Shown here: piece after piece, positions 54,597 to 63,293 of the stretch
How the letters are laid out: the number at the start of each line of letters is the position of its first letter
Numbering within the stretch: position 1 is the first letter of the stretch
Virus record (IMG/VR): IMGVR_UViG_3300009151_000034
Location: 1 to 64,000 of that record
DNA from: a virus
Reading direction: 5' to 3' (one strand)
DNA length: 64,000 bases
Notes under the pieces: generated by a model
The model's input: the letters and a program-made list of their open reading frames with translations, nothing else
Databases searched by the model: none
What the model was told of the DNA's origin: nothing
Made by a program: the position numbers and the translations under genes

Positions 54597-55009
54597 GCTG
54601 GTAGTAATCCTGGAAACCCCTTGTTGATAAGTTCGCGTGTAATATTCGGATAAGGTAATTTTTTATCTTTAACAGCCAAAAGAAGTTTTGCATCGGCTTC
54701 AGAAACAGTTTCAAGTAATTCCACGAAAAGTGCTTCACGGCGAAGTTGTTTTAATGTTTGATGACCGTTTTGCACAAAAAGATATAATTTACGAGTTTGA
54801 GTGTATAATGATCCTTCCTGATCCACAAGAGTATTTGGTTTATATGGTGGCGAACCTTCTGGTAAGAGCCAAACTATATTTGGATCAAATGCACCACGGA
54901 TCATTGATTCTAGTGGCGCGCTAAAATTTTGTTTCAAAACCATAATACGTTCATCATCTGTCTGCATCTTCGAAGCTTTTTCAAAGATTTCCGCCAACCC
55001 TAATTTCAT
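54593..55009 (-). CDS. Conserved T4-like hypothetical protein
   Basis: FDPNIVWLLPEGSPPYKP...RKLYLF...RREALFVELLE...KDKKL. Confidence 0.75.
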   Translation of the reverse strand: MKLGLAEIFEKASKMQTDDERIMVLKQNFSAPLESMIRGAFDPNIVWLLPEGSPPYKPNTLVDQEGSLYTQTRKLYLFVQNGHQTLKQLRREALFVELLETVSEADAKLLLAVKDKKLPYPNITRELINKGFPGLLPA

Positions 55010-55395
55010 TATACGAAGTCTCCAATACTTTCGGTTAAATTCTTAAGTTTATGATCCATAAAATACGTCAACAAATTCTTGGCTTTTTTGCCTTCTTGTT
55101 CCGTATAACTATTTACTACTTCATTATATATGTTTTCAGGAATGTTAGCAAGATCAATTAGCTGTTCATTTCTTTTGTAATTTCGCAACATGGTTTCATT
55201 ACAAAACAATTTAGGTTCAGAATGTTTGAGCCACTCCTCTAGTTTTTTCTTGAAAAGTGGTTTTTGTCTTTCTCCAATAACTAAACAATTATCGTTTGAT
55301 AAAATATTAGGAATGCCATCGCTAGTATCACCAGATATGATATGCTCAATCCGATATTTTTCAATTTCTTCTCGTGTCATATATTTTTTTATCAT
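55009..55395 (-). CDS. rnh: RNase H (T4 rnh-type 5' nuclease), C-terminal half
   Basis: HIISGDTSDGIPNILS...RNYKRNEQLIDL..IPE. Confidence 0.85.
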   Translation of the reverse strand: MIKKYMTREEIEKYRIEHIISGDTSDGIPNILSNDNCLVIGERQKPLFKKKLEEWLKHSEPKLFCNETMLRNYKRNEQLIDLANIPENIYNEVVNSYTEQEGKKAKNLLTYFMDHKLKNLTESIGDFV

Positions 55396-55480
55396 AATTT
55401 GTTAAAAATCCTTGTCGCTTTATATAAATAAAAGAAGTAACGTCAAAAGAAAGTATTTTAGTTATGGCATATATTTATGG

Positions 55481-55981
55481 TCAATCTTTCCTTTGGATTA
55501 AAACATCCTTTACTGGTTGATATATTGCAACATTATCATAGGCCAGTAATTGTATAAAATCGTGATCCCCAGAAAGTATAAGAATTTTTTCCTTGGAAGA
55601 ATACTCCATTACCAATGACGCAATAACATCATCTGCCTCTGCATGTTCAATATCAATAACTGGATATGGAAAATTGACCATGAGTTCATTACGAAGTTTA
55701 TTGAAACATTCGAAAATCATTTTCCAATCTAGTTCAGAGGCTTCTCGGTTCTTTTTACGATTTGCCTTATAATACGGAAAAACTTCTTTACGCCAGTATC
55801 GTTTGCCATCACATGCAATAACAAGCTCACCATATTCTTTTTTAAATTTTGAACGATATGAACGAATCGAATTCAAAACCATATGGCGAATCATATTTTC
55901 TTCAACCTTGGCGTTTTTATGATTGCCAAGTTGAACCATAAGATTTGATAACATAACTTGTGATAAGTCCACAATGATCAT
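55481..55981 (-). CDS. rnh: RNase H (T4 rnh-type 5' nuclease), N-terminal half
   Basis: IIVDLSQ...IRHMVLNS...YWRK..FPYYKANRKK...EADDVIA...ILSGDHDFIQL. Confidence 0.9.
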   Translation of the reverse strand: MIIVDLSQVMLSNLMVQLGNHKNAKVEENMIRHMVLNSIRSYRSKFKKEYGELVIACDGKRYWRKEVFPYYKANRKKNREASELDWKMIFECFNKLRNELMVNFPYPVIDIEHAEADDVIASLVMEYSSKEKILILSGDHDFIQLLAYDNVAIYQPVKDVLIQRKD

Positions 55982-56396: not shown

Positions 56397-57404
56397 TTAT
56401 TTGTCAAAATAGATAATTTCACTGCCAGTTCCCACAAAATTAAAATCATAAATTTTACAACTTGGAGATTTTTTAAGGATGTTTTGAGCAAGTTTTTCTC
56501 TGTCTGAAACTGGAACATAAAAGATAAAAAACCCACCACCACCTGCGCCCAAAAGTTTACCACCAATAGCACCAGACATTATTGCCGTTTCGTAAATGCC
56601 ATCAAAATAATCATTACTAATTTCTTTGGTAACACGTTTTTTATCGTGCCATGCCATATCTAGTAAATTTCCAAAACTATCCACATCACCACGTTCGATA
56701 AAGTCAACAGCCTTTATTGCTTTGTCTCTACCATTAGCAACTAAATTAAACTTATCTTCTTGTAACATGGCTGCCTTTTGATTTTTGAGAATTTCATTAG
56801 CAGATCGGCCAACACCACTATAAACAAGTAAAAGATTTTCGTTAAGCTTTTGAATTGTCTCGGAAGTTATTTTTGGTTTGATAACAGTCACAGATTCATC
56901 GGAATGAAATTTTAAATAATTGAAACCCCCATAAGCAGCAGCATATTGGTCTTGTTTACCGATAGGATATTGGCAACGGTCAATTTCAATTTTACATGCA
57001 GCAGAAGCTAAAATTTCAGAATATTTTATTGGAGTTTTTTTACGATTTTCATTTTCATAAATCATCGTATTAATAAGACCAACGGTGAATGCAGAAGATG
57101 ATCCTAAACCAGTTCCTCTAGCAAGAACATCTGAAATTGAAGCCGTAGTGTATTTTTCACTTGTAACATATTCTTTAAATGTTTCACGAGTAATATCATG
57201 ACGCATTTTATCAATTTCGTCAACAATTTCTATGCTGTCATAAATGTTCCTGAAACCAGAATGCGGAACATTATGAGTCATTACATAAATGTATTTATCA
57301 ATCGTGGCAGAAAAAGCGGCGCCAGAAGACTTCTGATAAAAAGAAGACATATCACTACCACCACTAAAAAAACTTATCCTCAAAGGGGTCTTAGAAATAA
57401 TCAT
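56397..57404 (-). CDS. hddA: D-glycero-alpha-D-manno-heptose 7-phosphate kinase (GHMP family)
   Basis: KTPLRISFFSGGSD; GTGLGSSSA; IGKQDQYAAAYGG; GGKLLGAGGGGF. Confidence 0.88.
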   Translation of the reverse strand: MIISKTPLRISFFSGGSDMSSFYQKSSGAAFSATIDKYIYVMTHNVPHSGFRNIYDSIEIVDEIDKMRHDITRETFKEYVTSEKYTTASISDVLARGTGLGSSSAFTVGLINTMIYENENRKKTPIKYSEILASAACKIEIDRCQYPIGKQDQYAAAYGGFNYLKFHSDESVTVIKPKITSETIQKLNENLLLVYSGVGRSANEILKNQKAAMLQEDKFNLVANGRDKAIKAVDFIERGDVDSFGNLLDMAWHDKKRVTKEISNDYFDGIYETAIMSGAIGGKLLGAGGGGFFIFYVPVSDREKLAQNILKKSPSCKIYDFNFVGTGSEIIYFDK

Positions 57405-58414
57405 TACAAAGTCCTGTATATAAAAGTTTCGGTTTGTTTTTTACGACTTTCTAGTGTTGGATATTGTGCCAAAAGTTGTTTAAGCATCATTTCCCATTGA
57501 TTTTTAATACGATTTATATTATAACGAGAATCGACAAAAATTTTATTGAAATCAATCATATTTTTGTGAAGATTATTTTTATACATTTGAATTGCTGCAT
57601 CCAAGTGGTTTGTAAAAATATTTACATGAACATTATTATTTTGGCTACCATTATACATCATATTAAGACCACCTGATGTTTCTGGCAACGCACCAAAGTT
57701 TGGATGCACACAAATCAAACCAGCAGACATAGCTTCAAGCATAGCGCGACAGGAAGTTTCTAGCCAAATCGAAGGATATGCAAAAATATGAGATTTATTT
57801 AAATGTGTTTTTAAATCGATATTTGGAACAAATCCGTAATATGTAATTTGTGGATGGTTTTTACAACGATCAAAAAGTTTTTCGAATGGAGCATCAGCAG
57901 TATTCCATCCATAAATTTTGAAACTTGAAAACACATCAAGATGAATTTCTGGATGCTTCTTTGCTAATGCTTCAAAAGCAGGAACAAGAATTTCCAAACC
58001 ACGTTGAGGGGTTGATGTGTAAACTAAACGAATTTTACCATCTCCTTCAGTATACCGCAAAAATGGATCAGCGGGTTCGATACCAGATTCTAAAATGATT
58101 GATTTTTCATCATAAGGAAGCCCGTGAATGAGTTGATATCGACCATATTGCCAATTAGAAACAAATACAAATTTATGAATATCTTTAAGAAATGATGGGT
58201 CTTTGAATTTATTGGATTCTGGGTCTTCGGCCAAATCATGTGCCCAAAAAATTCTAATCTTGTCTTGTTCTAATGTTCTTGGTCTAGAACAAATAATTTG
58301 AAAGTTATCAAGTAGTTCTGGGTCCAGCATTGTTGTTAGTTTGCGTTTTGCAATTTCAGTCCCACCGAATGCATTTTGAGAAATTTCGTTCTCTTCAAAA
58401 CCTGCCATAATCAA
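57404..58414 (-). CDS. GT-B fold glycosyltransferase (GT4-like)
   Basis: GGTE; WAHD; YTSTPQRGL; YPSIWLETSCRAMLEAMSAG...GALPET (E-x7-E motif). Confidence 0.88.
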   Translation of the reverse strand: MIMAGFEENEISQNAFGGTEIAKRKLTTMLDPELLDNFQIICSRPRTLEQDKIRIFWAHDLAEDPESNKFKDPSFLKDIHKFVFVSNWQYGRYQLIHGLPYDEKSIILESGIEPADPFLRYTEGDGKIRLVYTSTPQRGLEILVPAFEALAKKHPEIHLDVFSSFKIYGWNTADAPFEKLFDRCKNHPQITYYGFVPNIDLKTHLNKSHIFAYPSIWLETSCRAMLEAMSAGLICVHPNFGALPETSGGLNMMYNGSQNNNVHVNIFTNHLDAAIQMYKNNLHKNMIDFNKIFVDSRYNINRIKNQWEMMLKQLLAQYPTLESRKKQTETFIYRTL

Positions 58415-58422
58415 AACAATCC

Positions 58423-59145
58423 TTATAGAGTATAATTTGATTTTTGTGCATCATTAAAGAACATGCACACAGTTTCATAAGAATAATCATAAAGAGGCTT
58501 TCCGATTATAGAAAGTTTCTTGATGATATCTGGGGTCATCGTAATAATATCACATCCCACATTTTGAGCCTGAACAAAATTATATACTTCTCTGGTTGAA
58601 GCCCAAAGAAATTCTACATTTTTATCAGCGGGAGTTTTCGTATTAATACAATATTTAACTGAATATTCTGGATCAACACCAGCATCAGCAATTCGACCAG
58701 CAAAAATTGAGATAATAGAAGGTGTATTTGTATCAAGATGATCTAGAATCGAAGAAGTTTGAAGTGCAGTAAAAACAGCAGTAACATTGCAACGAATTCC
58801 TTTTTTGCTGATTTTATTAATCAAATCATATGTAGGAACTCGCTTAGTATTCATCACAGGAATTTTAACATAAATTGGATAACCAAATCTTGTTTCCAAA
58901 CCAGCAAGAATTTCAGCCTGTCGAATGATTTCATCATCTTCATCAGCGAATACTTCAAGACTGATGTTTGTATCAGGCCGAATTTCTTTTAGCTTTGGAA
59001 TAATTCTTTCGCAAAAATCCATGTAATTTGTAATACCAGCCGATCTCATAAGAGAAGGATTGGTGGTAAATCCTTTCACTATCGGATTGGCTGCTGCATT
59101 TAAAATTCCATCATAATCTGCACCATCAGCAAAAATTTTAGTCAT
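58423..59145 (-). CDS. tal: Transaldolase (TalC/FSA-type)
   Basis: IFADGA; GFTTNPSL; YVKIP Schiff-base Lys; NVTAVF; SIFAGRIADAG; LWASTRE. Confidence 0.92.
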   Translation of the reverse strand: MTKIFADGADYDGILNAAANPIVKGFTTNPSLMRSAGITNYMDFCERIIPKLKEIRPDTNISLEVFADEDDEIIRQAEILAGLETRFGYPIYVKIPVMNTKRVPTYDLINKISKKGIRCNVTAVFTALQTSSILDHLDTNTPSIISIFAGRIADAGVDPEYSVKYCINTKTPADKNVEFLWASTREVYNFVQAQNVGCDIITMTPDIIKKLSIIGKPLYDYSYETVCMFFNDAQKSNYTL

Positions 59146-59671
59146 TATTTAATTCCTTTATTAGATTCACGGCAGTTAAAATATCTTGCGCGAAAAATGT
59201 TGGTTGAACGTGTTTATATTCATCTGGAGAATAATATTCTTTGCCAATGAAAATAGTGGAAAGATTACTTTTGGCACCACAAACTATATCTTTCCATCTA
59301 TCGCCAATCATATAACTTACACTTGGATGTATATCATAATCTTCAATTAAAGTCAATACCATTCCGTTATTTGGTTTGTAGTTAAAAGATTTTCGATCTA
59401 ATGCACAAATGATATCATCTACGCCCATATCTAAAATTATCTTAGTCATAATTTCGAGCGTTTCATAATTCATTTTTCCATCAAGATGATCTGGTTGATT
59501 GGTAACTACAAATACCATATACCCCATTTTCTTTAGGGTGTCAATCGATTCTTCAGCGTAAGGAAGAATTTCAAATTCTTCAAGAGACCAGGGTGCTGTA
59601 GAAATTCCGGTTTTTCTTGGGACTAACTTATTTATAACACCGTCACGATCAAGAAAAACTGCTTTTACCAT
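59138..59671 (-). CDS. gmhB: D,D-heptose 1,7-bisphosphate phosphatase (HAD IIIA)
   Basis: AVFLDRDGVIN; VVTNQPD; KPNNGM; SYMIGDRWKDI. Confidence 0.88.
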   Translation of the reverse strand: MVKAVFLDRDGVINKLVPRKTGISTAPWSLEEFEILPYAEESIDTLKKMGYMVFVVTNQPDHLDGKMNYETLEIMTKIILDMGVDDIICALDRKSFNYKPNNGMVLTLIEDYDIHPSVSYMIGDRWKDIVCGAKSNLSTIFIGKEYYSPDEYKHVQPTFFAQDILTAVNLIKELNND

Positions 59672-60249
59672 TTTGTCTTCATAATTTGAAGATCAGGATG
59701 AGAAACCACACAATGCCAAACTACTGCTTGGAATGCTTCACTATGTGGTGTAACTCGGGAAGAATTTGGCATAGGGACGACAATAGCAACATCACTGTTT
59801 TGTGCCGCATAACCATCAAATTTTCCTACGATGGATAGAATAGCAGAACCCATTTCTTTAGCATGTTCTATGGCCTTAATCAAATTTACAGAAACATTTT
59901 TTTCTTTGTTCCCACCACCAACCGAAAGAATAATGATGGTATCTTCAACTTCTAGTTTTGATACTTTAAGCCATTCAACAAATATAGATTCAAAACCATC
60001 ATCGTTCGCTCTAGCCGTAAGTTCCGAAACATTATCCGTTGGAGCATAAGTTTCTATACCGCATAACTTACGAAGATCATTGACCATATGACTAGCATTT
60101 GCAGCAGAGCCACCAATACCAAGAACGAAAACTCGGTTGCCATTTTTTTGAGCCACGCGAAGATAATTAACAAATTCTTGGATATCATTTTTGTTAATTT
60201 GTTTAGCGATTTCAATTACTTCTTCTAAGTATGTTGAGATGTGTTGCAT
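59665..60249 (-). CDS. gmhA: Phosphoheptose (sedoheptulose-7-P) isomerase, SIS domain
   Basis: GIGGSAANASHMVNDL; LTARANDDGFESIF; SVGGG; TPHSEAFQ. Confidence 0.85.
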   Translation of the reverse strand: MQHISTYLEEVIEIAKQINKNDIQEFVNYLRVAQKNGNRVFVLGIGGSAANASHMVNDLRKLCGIETYAPTDNVSELTARANDDGFESIFVEWLKVSKLEVEDTIIILSVGGGNKEKNVSVNLIKAIEHAKEMGSAILSIVGKFDGYAAQNSDVAIVVPMPNSSRVTPHSEAFQAVVWHCVVSHPDLQIMKTKW

Positions 60250-60647
60250 AATCTATTCCTTAATTCAGTGCTGCTATATGAATGCAGACGGTCAATATAA
60301 ATGATTTTGATACCAAGTTCTTGGCAAATATCTTCACCAGTTACTTGCGTTCCTTTATATTCACTGCCCAAGTAACGAGTATCAATTTTTGTTGTAGCTA
60401 AAATATTTTCCAAATCACGTTCAGTGTCATATGGAATGATTCGGTCAATGTAATGACATGCATTCAACTGAACATAACGTTCGAATGTAGTTTGCATTGG
60501 TTTGTTTTTTGTTTCGGGGCGGTCAATCGTTGGATCAGTGTGAAGACCTGTAATCAAATAATCACAGGTCTGTTTGCACCTTTGCAACAAAATAACATGC
60601 CCAGGATGAAATAAATCAAAAGCCCCGCATGTAAATCCAATAATCAT
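60225..60647 (-). CDS. Cytidylyltransferase-family nucleotidyltransferase (TagD/HldC-like)
   Basis: GAFDLFHPGH (HxGH); ITGLHTDP; ERY; GSEY; YSSTELR. Confidence 0.88.
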   Translation of the reverse strand: MIIGFTCGAFDLFHPGHVILLQRCKQTCDYLITGLHTDPTIDRPETKNKPMQTTFERYVQLNACHYIDRIIPYDTERDLENILATTKIDTRYLGSEYKGTQVTGEDICQELGIKIIYIDRLHSYSSTELRNRLCNTSQHT

Positions 60648-60664
60648 TTATTATCTCAATACGT

Positions 60665-61054
60665 TCATGTTTCTGGAACCTCTAAAGTTGCCTGACGCGG
60701 AATGAACGCTTGCCGAATTGTCTTAGGACCAAAATATTGTGCCACCAGATGTTCAACAACAGCAGGATTAAATGGCTTGCATGAAAATACGTCAAGATAC
60801 ATTTGATCCAATTCGTTTACGAAATGGCAGCAAATATTGCTAGTCTCGATAAGTTGAACAAGCGTATAACCTGCCTTATTACCATCACCAAAATTAACAA
60901 TCTGTGGCTCACCATACGCAACCATGTCAATGTCTTTAACTAGTTGCTTAGCAAAGTTGTAGATATTATCATAATCTGTGATTGAATTATGATTACATCC
61001 AGCACAATCCATGATGCTATGGTATCCCCAATATTCAGTTTGTTCATCATTCAT
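60665..61054 (-). CDS. speD: Pyruvoyl-dependent decarboxylase, SpeD/AdoMetDC family
   Basis: WGYHSIMD; GYTLVQLIETSNICCHF; YLDVFSCKPF. Confidence 0.85.
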   Translation of the reverse strand: MNDEQTEYWGYHSIMDCAGCNHNSITDYDNIYNFAKQLVKDIDMVAYGEPQIVNFGDGNKAGYTLVQLIETSNICCHFVNELDQMYLDVFSCKPFNPAVVEHLVAQYFGPKTIRQAFIPRQATLEVPET

Positions 61055-61069
61055 ATCATATTCTCCTTT

Positions 61070-61738
61070 TTATTCTGGAATAAAAACTGTGTCAAGTCGA
61101 GTTATTTGTTTGTAACTTTTATAACCAATTGATTTCATTAGTTCTTTAACTTCTTTAACTTTTTTGTAGTCACATTCTAATATAATCATTGGCTTATGTT
61201 TTTCGATGGTTTTTACTGCTCCTTTAATTGCTTTTGGTTCATATCCCTCAAGATCAAATTGAATAAGTTTGACATTTTGGAATGAAAAACTATCCAAAGG
61301 AACAACCGGGATAGTCTGTTCAAAAACATCACCCTCAAAAATTTCAATTTGATTCATGCCACAATTTCCAGGAACTATTGCATTGATTGTTCCTATATTA
61401 TGGGTTTCTCCAAGACCACAATTAAATTTGATGATTCCTGGAATTTGACAATTATTTACCAAACAAAAAAAACTAAGAGGGTCTGGTTCAAAAGTATATA
61501 CATTTTTAAAAAAACTAGTATATAAAAGTGGATACATACCACAATTACCACCAGCCTGAATTACTACTCCATCTTTAATAGGAAATTCTTCACGTAAAAA
61601 TGGTTCGATTTGATGTAACCAATCTGAAGCAATGATACCAAATGTATCAGTATCATCCTTTGGCCACACCCAATGTGTAATATTATGAATTGGTGCATTT
61701 AATATTACACATTGATTGGATAAATTATTGATATTCAT
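61070..61738 (-). CDS. FkbM-family SAM-dependent methyltransferase
   Basis: QAGGNCGMYP; VYTFEPD; LDSF...LIQFDLEGYE...GAVKTIEKHKP. Confidence 0.88.
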   Translation of the reverse strand: MNINNLSNQCVILNAPIHNITHWVWPKDDTDTFGIIASDWLHQIEPFLREEFPIKDGVVIQAGGNCGMYPLLYTSFFKNVYTFEPDPLSFFCLVNNCQIPGIIKFNCGLGETHNIGTINAIVPGNCGMNQIEIFEGDVFEQTIPVVPLDSFSFQNVKLIQFDLEGYEPKAIKGAVKTIEKHKPMIILECDYKKVKEVKELMKSIGYKSYKQITRLDTVFIPE

Positions 61739-62909: not shown

Positions 62910-63293
62910 CTATTTTAAAATTTCAACTTTCAGTTTTGTTACGCCCGTAGTATACATGCCTAGACGATGAGCGCAACCCAAAGTTACATCTAATCCTCTA
63001 CCACGTATAAATGGCCCTCTATCATTGACAGTCACAATGATCGATTTTTTTGTTTCTAAATTGGTAAGACGCAGTTTAGTGCCAAAAGGAAGTGTTCTAT
63101 GGGCAACCGTTAATCCCCAAGGATTAAAACGTTCGCCATTGGCCGTTACCTTACCGTGCTTATACCATGATGCTATCGTGTTGTATGTTTTGATAACAGT
63201 GTGGTATTCGTGAACCTCCGTAGAATGAGCATTGTTAGCCATGAAAAAAATCAAAATACTCAAACTGAGAAGGGCGAATATACGCTTTCTCAA
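62910..63293 (-). CDS. RlpA-like (DPBB) lytic transglycosylase with a signal peptide
   Basis: ASWY...TANGERFN...AHRTLPFGT...VTVNDRGPFIRGRGLD. Confidence 0.9.
   Translation of the reverse strand: MRKRIFALLSLSILIFFMANNAHSTEVHEYHTVIKTYNTIASWYKHGKVTANGERFNPWGLTVAHRTLPFGTKLRLTNLETKKSIIVTVNDRGPFIRGRGLDVTLGCAHRLGMYTTGVTKLKVEILK

What the first reader, a model, noticed from the sequence alone, without database searches (positions are those of the whole stretch)
60225..60647. Non-canonical activation step: alpha-pathway kinase paired with a cytidylyltransferase-fold enzyme
Known: HddA (alpha anomer) normally pairs with the guanylyltransferase HddC to give GDP-heptose, while HxGH-fold HldC/HldE enzymes act on the beta anomer to give ADP-heptose. 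Seen: HddA is present, no HddC-like gene is in the window, and a TagD-like HxGH enzyme overlaps gmhA by 25 bp. Inference: the product may be an unusual donor such as CDP- or ADP-alpha-heptose, orthogonal to host LPS metabolism.
Basis: partly seen in the sequence, partly recalled or inferred. Interest (0 to 1): 0.7.

Follow-up and report, generated by a model that had tools for sequence, protein, structure and literature searches.

The report
Phage heptose pathway with odd activating enzyme
A complete T4-like phage genome carries its own pathway for making an activated seven-carbon sugar, and it pairs a kinase of the "alpha" route with a small activating enzyme of a fold otherwise known only from the "beta" route. 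The same pairing recurs in many other viruses, so it probably marks an unstudied way of making sugar donors.

Summary
ORF 60225-60647 (-) encodes a 140-aa HxGH nucleotidyltransferase (PF01467). It overlaps a GmhA-like gene by 25 bp, in an operon NTase-GmhA-GmhB-transaldolase-GT4-HddA-like GHMP kinase. The complete 149-kb phage genome has no HddC-type (PF00483/PF12804) transferase, no PfkB kinase and no second PF01467 gene.

The enzyme is neither a TagD nor an HldC orthologue. It belongs to a separate clade, rich in phages and Flavobacteriia.

The pairing is not a quirk of this window:
- 32 of 35 kinase-anchored viral loci carry the NTase.
- The pairing recurs in five other architectures: Caulobacter phage Cr30, a cyanophage, a megaphage and two groups of metagenome contigs.
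- Gene fusions exist: GmhA::NTase and small-HAD::NTase, each beside a GHMP kinase.

Caveat: orthologues with the same polar invariants occur in Flavobacteriia that lack heptose genes. Other phage copies sit next to phosphomannomutase or 4,6-dehydratases. The clade is therefore probably a general (manno-type) sugar-1-phosphate activator.

A 2023 preprint showed that a phage HAD/APH + CTP_transf + GT4 set heptosylates DNA, so phage heptose activation by this Pfam family has a precedent.

The anomer, the nucleotide and the acceptor remain untested. First-stage notes of this scan describe the same operon on this genome. One describes a similar kinase-phosphatase/cytidylyltransferase cluster on another genome.

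Verdict: new variant of a known kind, moderate interest.

The parts
60225..60647 (-). HxGH (CTP_transf_like) nucleotidyltransferase, 140 aa; proposed heptose-1-phosphate nucleotidylyltransferase
   Evidence: PF01467 E 5.8e-13. NCBIfam rfaE_dom_II 76 bits and TagD 59.5 bits, both below cut-off. Model pLDDT 82.6 with TagD/ECT/CCT/HldC fold. Only NTase of any fold found in the genome.
59665..60249 (-). GmhA-like SIS-domain sedoheptulose-7-phosphate isomerase, 194 aa
   Evidence: PF13580 SIS_2. Best NCBIfam model gmhA TIGR00441, 55.6 bits, below cut-off. Overlaps the NTase by 25 bp.
59138..59671 (-). GmhB-like HAD-IIIA phosphatase, 177 aa
   Evidence: HAD families. NCBIfam HAD-IIIA PRK06769 78.8 bits and heptose-1,7-bisphosphate 7-phosphatase models 47-68 bits.
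58423..59145 (-). Transaldolase (supplies sedoheptulose-7-phosphate), 240 aa
   Evidence: PF00923 E 1.5e-34. TIGR02134 253 bits.
57404..58414 (-). GT4-type (retaining, GT-B) glycosyltransferase, 336 aa; acceptor unknown
   Evidence: PF00534 and PF13692. Model pLDDT 90. Listed fold matches include BshA, GtfA, HepE, a mannosyltransferase, PimA, TarM, SdgB and PglA, besides glycogen, sucrose-phosphate and trehalose synthases. The most conserved protein of the operon (62-72% identity).
56397..57404 (-). HddA-like GHMP sugar kinase, 335 aa
   Evidence: PF00288 and PF08544. NF049969 HddA 154 bits, best model but below cut-off. PDB WcbL E 1e-36 to 1e-37.
61070..61738 (-). FkbM-family methyltransferase just upstream; possibly a sugar O-methyltransferase of the same pathway (uncertain)
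   Evidence: PF05050 and TIGR01444. Related loci L014 and L015 have a methyltransferase beside the NTase.

Best explanation
The ORF encodes the activation enzyme of a self-contained phage pathway. [quoted passage not shown] Shown here: the gene content, the absence of any other nucleotidyltransferase or PfkB kinase, the conservation of the module and the gene fusions. Inferred: the substrate, the anomer, the nucleotide and the acceptor. The enzyme belongs to a distinct HxGH clade that probably activates manno-configured sugar 1-phosphates in general (heptose-1-P here, perhaps mannose-1-P elsewhere).
For: (1) It is the only nucleotidyltransferase in a complete genome that encodes every other step. 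(2) The module NTase-GmhA-GmhB-Tal-GT4-HddA is conserved at 45-70% protein identity in related viral contigs: 32 of 35 kinase-anchored loci with >5 kb upstream carry the NTase, and 11 of 12 NTase-anchored loci with >5 kb downstream carry the kinase. (3) The same GHMP + HxGH pairing, never with a PfkB kinase, occurs in other layouts: Caulobacter phage Cr30; cyanophage SynMITS9220M01, as GT-GHMP-GmhA-HAD::NTase-SDR; megaphage LR756511; contigs L178/L179, as GT2-GHMP-HAD::NTase-SDR; and a JGI contig with SDR::GHMP beside GmhA-like SIS::NTase. (4) Fusions of the NTase to a GmhA-like domain and to a small HAD phosphatase are Rosetta-stone links to the heptose route. (5) Other fusions or neighbours are sugar-nucleotide enzymes, namely UDPG/GDP-Man dehydrogenase, cupin, phosphomannomutase and RmlB/C/D-like genes, not glycerol-phosphate enzymes. 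(6) No TagF-type CDP-glycerol consumer and no GT9 heptosyltransferase is present; the operon's transferase is a retaining GT4, whose characterised members use alpha-linked donors (CAZy knowledge). (7) WcbL, the closest solved kinase, binds the alpha anomer and its proposed product is alpha-heptose-1,7-bisphosphate (PMC4691232). (8) In E. coli a phage set of HAD/APH-like enzyme + CTP_transf + GT4 was necessary and sufficient to put heptose on 5hmC (bioRxiv 10.1101/2023.12.21.572611). A cluster of the same architecture in Agathobaculum phage AB434P2 has an NTase 50% identical to this one.
Against: No biochemistry exists for any member of this clade. The closest cellular orthologues (50-57% identity, Flavobacteriia) head polysaccharide loci with no GmhA, GmhB or HddA within 8 kb. 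None was found genome-wide in 10 such genomes. Yet all polar invariants are identical to those of the heptose-linked phage enzymes, so heptose-1-P cannot be the only substrate of the clade. Some phages carry the NTase without heptose genes. Two viral loci have the heptose genes without the NTase in 16 kb (L154/L159). All known HxGH heptose enzymes (HldC, HldE) use the beta anomer. Viral heptose enzymes assayed by Tang et al. 2024 reportedly made ADP-heptose of the beta series (PMC11461863, PMC11573728); I could not check whether these belong to this clade.
Confidence: 0.6

Rival explanations
1. [quoted passage not shown] Either this diverged GHMP kinase gives the beta phosphate or the enzymes tolerate both anomers. 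The phage then simply boosts or copies the host LPS precursor.
For: The best NCBIfam profile for the NTase is rfaE_dom_II. HldC is a close fold match. Viral heptose enzymes were reported to make ADP-heptose that activates ALPK1 (PMC11461863, PMC11573728). The kinase scores only 154 bits against the HddA model's 600-bit cut-off.
Against: There is no PfkB kinase in the genome. GHMP sugar kinases with known products give the alpha-D phosphate, and WcbL binds the alpha anomer. The HENase motif (F/L)xxGxSTT is replaced by RxHx(Y/F)SS(S/T). There is no GT9 heptosyltransferase, only a retaining GT4. E. coli HldE domain II lies on a very long branch from the clade.
Confidence: 0.15
2. The NTase makes a CDP-alcohol such as CDP-glycerol (true TagD/ECT-like chemistry) for an unrelated purpose. 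The phage-made alpha-heptose-1-P is activated by a host ManC/HddC-type guanylyltransferase.
For: Pairwise, the best solved relatives are ethanolamine-phosphate cytidylyltransferase and TagD. A K-x-K motif and the leading Arg of the RTEGISTT-like motif resemble cytidylyltransferases. The NTase occurs in genomes without heptose genes. Sources name it glycerol-3-phosphate cytidylyltransferase.
Against: The TagD model scores 59.5 bits against a cut-off of 165.4. The phage has no TagF-like glycerophosphotransferase, and in five flavobacterial genomes such a gene was either absent or not linked to the NTase. The fusion partners are GmhA-like, HAD, cupin, UDPG dehydrogenase and GT2 domains, which are sugar-nucleotide enzymes. 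Linkage with GHMP kinases is tight and recurrent.
Confidence: 0.1
3. The NTase is a general hexose-1-phosphate (for example mannose-1-P) activator that merely travels with the heptose genes. The heptose branch uses another, unrecognised activating enzyme or ends at the sugar phosphate.
For: Phosphomannomutase lies next to the NTase in L019 and in Acinetobacter phage Ab1-TPeters. The NTase stands in the RmlA position of an RmlB/C/D-like operon in cyanophages S-B43 and S-H68. ManC, GDP-mannose dehydratase and UDPG dehydrogenase are neighbours in Flavobacteriia. Active-site residues are identical across these contexts.
Against: A GT4 needs a nucleotide-linked donor and no other nucleotidyltransferase is encoded. 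The GmhA::NTase and HAD::NTase fusions beside GHMP kinases argue for direct participation. D,D-heptose-1-P is a homologue of mannose-1-P, so both activities may reside in one enzyme.
Confidence: 0.1

Closest known systems
[quoted passage not shown]
   Same: Same HxGH Rossmann-like fold and size, and a role directly after GmhB in a heptose pathway. It is the best NCBIfam profile match (76 bits) and a close fold match.
   Different: The score is far below the cut-off. The motif (F/L)xxGxSTT is replaced by RxHx(Y/F)SS(S/T). The partner is a GHMP kinase, not a PfkB kinase. The following transferase is GT4, not GT9. The clade lies on a long branch from E. coli HldE-II.
[quoted passage not shown]
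   Same: GmhA, a GHMP kinase and a HAD phosphatase in one cluster. The closest solved kinases are WcbL and its orthologues.
   Different: The last step there is a GlmU/RmlA-fold guanylyltransferase (PF00483). The phage genome has none and carries an HxGH enzyme instead.
Phage 'contig 53' hypermodification cluster (HAD/APH-like + CTP_transf + GT53), bioRxiv 10.1101/2023.12.21.572611
   Same: Phage-encoded, with a CTP_transf_like/TIGR02199-type NTase and a GT4 retaining GT-B whose top fold match is BshA. All three genes were needed to attach heptose in E. coli.
   Different: There the kinase is APH-like and fused to a small HAD, precursor supply is left to the host, and the acceptor is 5hmC in DNA. 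This phage has a GHMP kinase, its own GmhA/GmhB/transaldolase, and no detectable route to hydroxymethyl-pyrimidines. Sequence relatedness to contig 53 itself could not be tested.
TagD / TarD, ECT and CCT cytidylyltransferases
   Same: Fold, HxGH, a K-x-K loop and a leading Arg in the C-terminal motif. These are the best pairwise PDB matches.
   Different: They act on primary alcohol phosphates. The TagD model scores only 59.5 bits against a cut-off of 165.4. No glycerophosphotransferase is present. The genomic partners are sugar-1-phosphate and NDP-sugar enzymes.

Membership tests
PF01467 CTP_transf_like (HxGH nucleotidyltransferase superfamily) | Pfam score above the gathering threshold, HxGH motif, Rossmann-like fold | tested here: met
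   49.6 bits against 21; H14-P-G-H17; fold matches to TagD, ECT, CCT and HldC.
HldC / HldE domain II (TIGR02199) | Score at or above the curated equivalog cut-off | tested here: not met
   76.2 bits against a cut-off of 181.5.
HldC / HldE domain II (TIGR02199) | C-terminal (F/L)xxGxSTT motif (PMC11573728) | tested here: not met
   The window has R120-L-H-S-Y-S-S-T127; the clade consensus is RxHx(Y/F)SS(S/T); E. coli HldE has FEDGCSTT at the aligned columns.
HldC / HldE domain II (TIGR02199) | Partner kinase of the PfkB/ribokinase family (HldA or HldE domain I) | tested here: not met
   No PF00294 match in the complete genome.
HldC / HldE domain II (TIGR02199) | Specificity for the beta anomer of heptose-1-P and for ATP | not testable with these tools
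   Needs an enzyme assay.
TagD glycerol-3-phosphate cytidylyltransferase (TIGR01518) | Score at or above the curated equivalog cut-off | tested here: not met
   59.5 bits against a cut-off of 165.4.
TagD glycerol-3-phosphate cytidylyltransferase (TIGR01518) | A CDP-glycerol consumer (TagB/TagF-type PF04464) in the same genome or locus | tested here: not met
   No PF04464 in the phage. In five flavobacterial genomes with the orthologue it was absent (2) or unlinked (3).
HddA (NF049969) - for the partner kinase | GHMP kinase fold with closest relatives among characterised heptokinases | tested here: met
   PF00288 and PF08544; WcbL 4usk/4usm E 1e-36 to 1e-37, 4n3o, 3k85; HddA is the best NCBIfam model.
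HddA (NF049969) - for the partner kinase | Score at or above the curated equivalog cut-off | tested here: not met
   154.4 bits against a cut-off of 600, so it is a diverged relative.
HddC (alpha-heptose-1-P guanylyltransferase) | PF00483 / PF12804 nucleotidyltransferase fold | tested here: not met
   No such gene in the genome. The candidate enzyme has a different fold.
Phage heptose module of the contig-53 type (kinase + HAD + CTP_transf + GT4) | CTP_transf_like NTase together with a retaining GT4 GT-B, an anomeric kinase and a HAD phosphatase | tested here: met
   All four functions are present in the operon. The kinase and HAD families differ from contig 53.
Phage heptose module of the contig-53 type (kinase + HAD + CTP_transf + GT4) | A hydroxymethyl-pyrimidine DNA acceptor is made by the phage | tested here: not met
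   No PF00303 or PF00145 match. The PF12851 search also found nothing, but its control rang in no genome, so it is uninformative.

The most novel reading that the evidence does not exclude
This whole clade (about 70 clusters at 50% identity with E<=1e-30, in phages, giant-virus-like contigs and Flavobacteriia) may be an unrecognised class of HxGH-fold nucleotidyltransferases. They would act on alpha-D-manno-configured sugar 1-phosphates, convergently with the RmlA/ManC/HddC fold. [quoted passage not shown] Retaining GT4 enzymes would then use this donor to heptosylate phage or host targets.
Probability: 0.4. Interest if true: 0.75.

Novelty: new variant of a known kind. Interest (0 to 1): 0.55.

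Why it matters
Only two activation routes for bacterial heptoses are in the textbooks: PfkB kinase + HxGH adenylyltransferase (ADP-beta-heptose) and GHMP kinase + RmlA-fold guanylyltransferase (GDP-alpha-heptose). A third, mixed route that is widespread in viruses would add a new sugar donor and a new specificity to a well-studied enzyme fold. It would give glycoengineering a compact five-gene cassette that runs from central metabolism to an activated heptose. It also bears on two current topics: which NDP-heptoses exist in nature, since these are immune agonists through ALPK1, and how phages glycosylate DNA or other targets. Caulobacter phage Cr30 and cyanophage SynMITS9220M01 are cultured and carry the same pairing, so the question can be tested directly.

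Tried and rejected
- A megablast of the operon against 50,697 phage records found nothing; protein-level searches were needed.
- The word-index search for longer (fused) relatives found none. The exhaustive HMMER search then did find fusions, so the first negative was a sensitivity artefact.
- DNA hypermodification as the purpose: no ThyA/dCMP-hydroxymethylase-family gene and no C5-methylase was found; the Tet/JBP search also found nothing, but its control did not ring, so it is uninformative. Not supported for this phage, though not excluded.
- CDP-glycerol reading: no TagF-like gene.
- I considered that the enzyme cytidylylates a primary sugar phosphate (S7P, F6P or heptose-7-P), as in the C. 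jejuni CDP-6-glucitol pathway. That enzyme is PF01128 (IspD fold), so it is no precedent for this fold, and the idea leaves the kinase and phosphatase unexplained.
- Fold comparison could not separate TagD-like from HldC-like.
- The tree has few columns and many unresolved forks. It shows only that the clade is far from E. coli HldE-II and that the flavobacterial sequences form one nested group.
- Promoter and terminator scans were at chance level.
- NCBIfam could not assign the GmhB-like phosphatase to the alpha or beta type.
- The Science 2024 paper of Tang et al. is not in the library. Only two commentaries could be read, so I could not check whether its viral enzymes belong to this clade.

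Full report
**What is there.** The window is the first 64 kb of a complete virus record (149,097 bp, direct terminal repeats). It is an AT-rich (37% GC) T4-like phage. On the minus strand, eight genes are packed with overlaps or gaps of at most 17 bp:
- FkbM-family methyltransferase, 61070-61738
- S-adenosylmethionine decarboxylase, 60665-61054
- the ORF in question, 60225-60647
- GmhA-like SIS protein, 59665-60249
- GmhB-like HAD-IIIA phosphatase, 59138-59671
- transaldolase, 58423-59145
- GT4-type glycosyltransferase, 57404-58414
- HddA-like GHMP kinase, 56397-57404

The 25-bp overlap with gmhA is exact. It arises from a seven-residue C-terminal extension of the NTase relative to its relatives, and an AAGGA motif precedes the gmhA ATG. 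Promoter-like and terminator-like sites are at chance level, so co-transcription is plausible but not shown.

**Is an hddC hidden elsewhere?** No. Searches of the whole record found no PF00483 and no PF12804 nucleotidyltransferase, no PfkB kinase, and only one PF01467 gene, which is this one. The 14 control genomes matched in each search.

**What kind of enzyme is it?**
- It has H14-P-G-H17 and the fold of the small HxGH nucleotidyltransferases. The model has pLDDT 82.6, and the top fold matches are TarD/TagD, ECT and CCT, with HldC close behind.
- By profile it is nearest to rfaE_dom_II (76 bits, cut-off 181.5), then to TagD (59.5 bits, cut-off 165.4).
- By pairwise comparison it is nearest to ECT and TagD, with HldC weaker. 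It is an orthologue of neither.
- The C-terminal motif reads R-x-H-x-(Y/F/W)-S-S-(S/T). E. coli HldE has FEDGCSTT at the aligned columns, and the heptose nucleotidyltransferase motif is (F/L)xxGxSTT (PMC11573728). The leading Arg and a K47-N-K49 loop recall cytidylyltransferases. Position 5 is aromatic, not the Arg of the promiscuous 'STTR5' enzymes.
- In a tree the clade sits on long branches away from E. coli HldE domain II.
- An exhaustive HMMER search counts 70 clusters (50% identity) at E<=1e-30 and 1,484 at E<=1e-10. The nearest clusters are from Uroviricota and Bacteroidota.

**Is the pairing with the GHMP kinase more than an accident?** Yes.
- In IMG/VR, the order NTase-GmhA-GmhB-Tal-GT4-HddA is kept in dozens of related contigs at only 45-70% protein identity.
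- 32 of 35 kinase-anchored loci with more than 5 kb upstream carry the NTase. 11 of 12 NTase-anchored loci with more than 5 kb downstream carry the kinase.
- Variants keep NTase, GT4 and kinase while swapping other parts. L014, for example, reads NTase-methyltransferase-GalE-like SDR-GT4-HddA-GmhA.
- No PF00483-type enzyme was detected in any of these loci with a ManC query.

The same pairing appears in unrelated layouts:
- Caulobacter phage Cr30: glutaredoxin-epimerase-GT-GHMP kinase-GmhA, with the NTase about 6 kb away across the record ends.
- Cyanophage SynMITS9220M01: GT, GHMP kinase gp204 (best model HddA), GmhA, gp206 (a small HAD domain fused to the NTase) and an SDR.
- The 595-kb megaphage LR756511: GHMP kinase directly followed by the NTase.
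- Contigs L178/L179: GT2, GHMP kinase, HAD::NTase, SDR, GT11, beside ribonucleotide reductase.
- A JGI contig in which a GmhA-like SIS domain is fused to the NTase, lying beside an SDR::GHMP-kinase fusion.

Fusion of the NTase to the isomerase in one lineage and to a phosphatase in another is classical evidence that these proteins work in one pathway. In none of these loci is the kinase of the PfkB type.

**The complication.**
- The closest cellular relatives (50-57% identity, more than 434 loci) are in Flavobacteriia. There the gene stands at the head of polysaccharide loci. A NusG/UpxY-like gene lies upstream (20 of 80 loci, mostly on the opposite strand). A UDP-glucose dehydrogenase-family gene lies nearby, mostly downstream, in 54 of 80 loci, an SDR epimerase/dehydratase in 58 of 80 and ManC in 23 of 80.
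- None of the 80 loci has GmhA, GmhB or HddA within 8 kb.
- Ten such genomes have none anywhere: five by family-model searches and five by searches with this phage's own proteins.
- The gene is accessory, found in 6 of 121 Flavobacteriaceae sampled.
- Every polar invariant of the heptose-linked phage enzymes is identical in the flavobacterial ones: D11, H14, H17, R43, K47, N48, Q52, E56, R57, Q60, Y73, T75, E76, D78, R91, R120, H122, S125, S126 and R130. Only three fixed differences exist, and none is an obvious ligand residue.
- Heptose-1-P therefore cannot be the sole substrate of the clade.

Other phage contexts point to what the common denominator may be:
- a phosphomannomutase directly after the NTase in L019 and in Acinetobacter phage Ab1-TPeters;
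- an NTase::cupin fusion in Acinetobacter phage vB_AbaM_3098 and in P0169, reminiscent of bifunctional ManC;
- the NTase in the RmlA position of a 4,6-dehydratase / 3,5-epimerase / reductase operon in cyanophages S-B43 and S-H68;
- a UDPG/GDP-mannose dehydrogenase::NTase fusion.

All of these are enzymes that make alpha-hexose-1-phosphates or use NDP-hexoses. [quoted passage not shown] The simplest reading that fits all contexts is a sugar-1-phosphate nucleotidylyltransferase with a preference for manno-configured alpha phosphates. This is an inference, not a result.

**Anomer and transferase.**
- The closest solved kinase, WcbL, binds the alpha anomer, and its proposed product is alpha-heptose-1,7-bisphosphate (PMC4691232). 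GHMP sugar kinases with known products give the alpha-D phosphate (established knowledge).
- Nucleotidyl transfer does not touch the anomeric centre, so the donor would be alpha-linked.
- The operon's transferase is a GT-B enzyme (model pLDDT 90). The listed solved fold matches include BshA, GtfA, HepE, a GDP-mannose-dependent mannosyltransferase, PimA, TarM, SdgB and PglA, besides glycogen, sucrose-phosphate and trehalose synthases. By established CAZy knowledge these belong to retaining families, mostly GT4, that use alpha-linked donors.
- The genome has no GT9 heptosyltransferase, the family that uses ADP-beta-heptose.
- These points agree with an alpha donor but do not prove it.
- The acceptor is unknown. 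Protein O-glycosyltransferases are among the fold matches. GT4 homologues occur in Cr30, in Stenotrophomonas, Sinorhizobium, Rhizobium and Ochrobactrum phages, and in Pelagibacter podophages, most of them without the heptose genes.

**What is already known.**
- Commentaries on Tang et al. (Science 2024) state that NDP-heptose enzymes occur in viruses, that monodomain nucleotidyltransferases exist, and that CDP- and UDP-beta-heptose are made by some of them (PMC11573728, PMC11461863).
- A 2023 preprint reconstituted a phage cluster in E. coli: a HAD/APH-like bifunctional enzyme, a 'CTP transf.' enzyme and GT53 (GT4, retaining, GT-B, top match BshA). All three were needed to form 5-heptosyl- and di-heptosyl-hydroxymethylcytosine (bioRxiv 10.1101/2023.12.21.572611).
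- Agathobaculum phage AB434P2 has a cluster of this architecture: TIGR01689-type HAD::APH-like protein, an NTase 50% identical to the one here, a 328-aa unknown protein and a dUMP hydroxymethylase. Its HAD domain is homologous to the one fused to the NTase in the cyanophage (31% identity, E 1e-13).
- Phage heptose activation by this Pfam family, feeding a GT4, thus has an experimental precedent.
- As far as I could find, three things have not been described: the pairing with an HddA-type GHMP kinase, its breadth, and the implication that an HxGH enzyme handles an alpha sugar phosphate.
- For this phage, DNA is an unlikely acceptor. No ThyA/dCMP-hydroxymethylase-family gene and no C5 methylase was found. 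The Tet/JBP search also found nothing, but its control did not ring, so it is uninformative.

**Verdict.** I put 0.6 on 'this enzyme activates the phage-made heptose-1-phosphate, most likely the alpha anomer'. I give smaller weights to a beta-type product, to a CDP-alcohol role with host activation of the heptose, and to a hexose-only role. The nucleotide cannot be called from sequence. It is a new variant of a known kind of system, of moderate interest. It is directly testable because two cultured phages, Cr30 and SynMITS9220M01, carry the same pairing.

Noticed in passing
window 55009-55981 (-): The T4-type RNase H / flap endonuclease gene is in two ORFs in different frames (166 aa at 55481-55981 and 128 aa at 55009-55395), separated by an 85-nt spacer. 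Relatives such as L154 and Cr30 have one ORF of about 270-285 aa.
   Followed up: partly
window 60665-61738 (-): An S-adenosylmethionine decarboxylase and an FkbM-family methyltransferase lie directly upstream of the NTase. Related loci (L014, L015) place other methyltransferases beside the NTase, so the heptose may be O-methylated.
   Followed up: partly
L165:6223-7506 (IMGVR_UViG_3300030616_000506, 144-kb viral contig): A Fom1-like fusion of a CTP_transf_like domain with PEP mutase (a phosphonate-pathway hallmark) lies close to an HddA-like GHMP kinase, an SDR, methyltransferases and a UDPG dehydrogenase. This looks like a phage-encoded phosphonate/glycan cluster.
   Followed up: no
L024-L103 (Flavobacteriia), e.g. 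L057:7977-8426 and L049:7571-8435: Orthologues of the NTase head polysaccharide loci, after a NusG/UpxY-like gene in a quarter of them, in genomes without heptose genes. Polaribacter loci carry two tandem PF01467 genes. The substrate there is unknown.
   Followed up: partly
L174:1314-4500 (Agathobaculum phage AB434P2): HAD::APH-like protein, NTase, a 328-aa unknown protein and a dUMP hydroxymethylase stand in a row. This is a likely DNA-hypermodification cluster on hydroxymethyl-uracil, with the architecture of the published contig 53.
   Followed up: partly
P0228, P0173, P0143: There are unusual fusions of the NTase clade with a SET domain, with a GT2 domain and with DUF6794.
   Followed up: no
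L154:5012-10978 and L159: In a variant module (epimerase-GT4-GmhA-transaldolase-SDR-GFO/IDH/MocA oxidoreductase-HddA) no NTase was found within 16 kb. How the heptose is activated there is open.
   Followed up: partly
window 62910-63293 (-): A small secreted protein has an RlpA-like (double-psi beta-barrel) sequence signature. This was judged by eye from the translation only.
   Followed up: no
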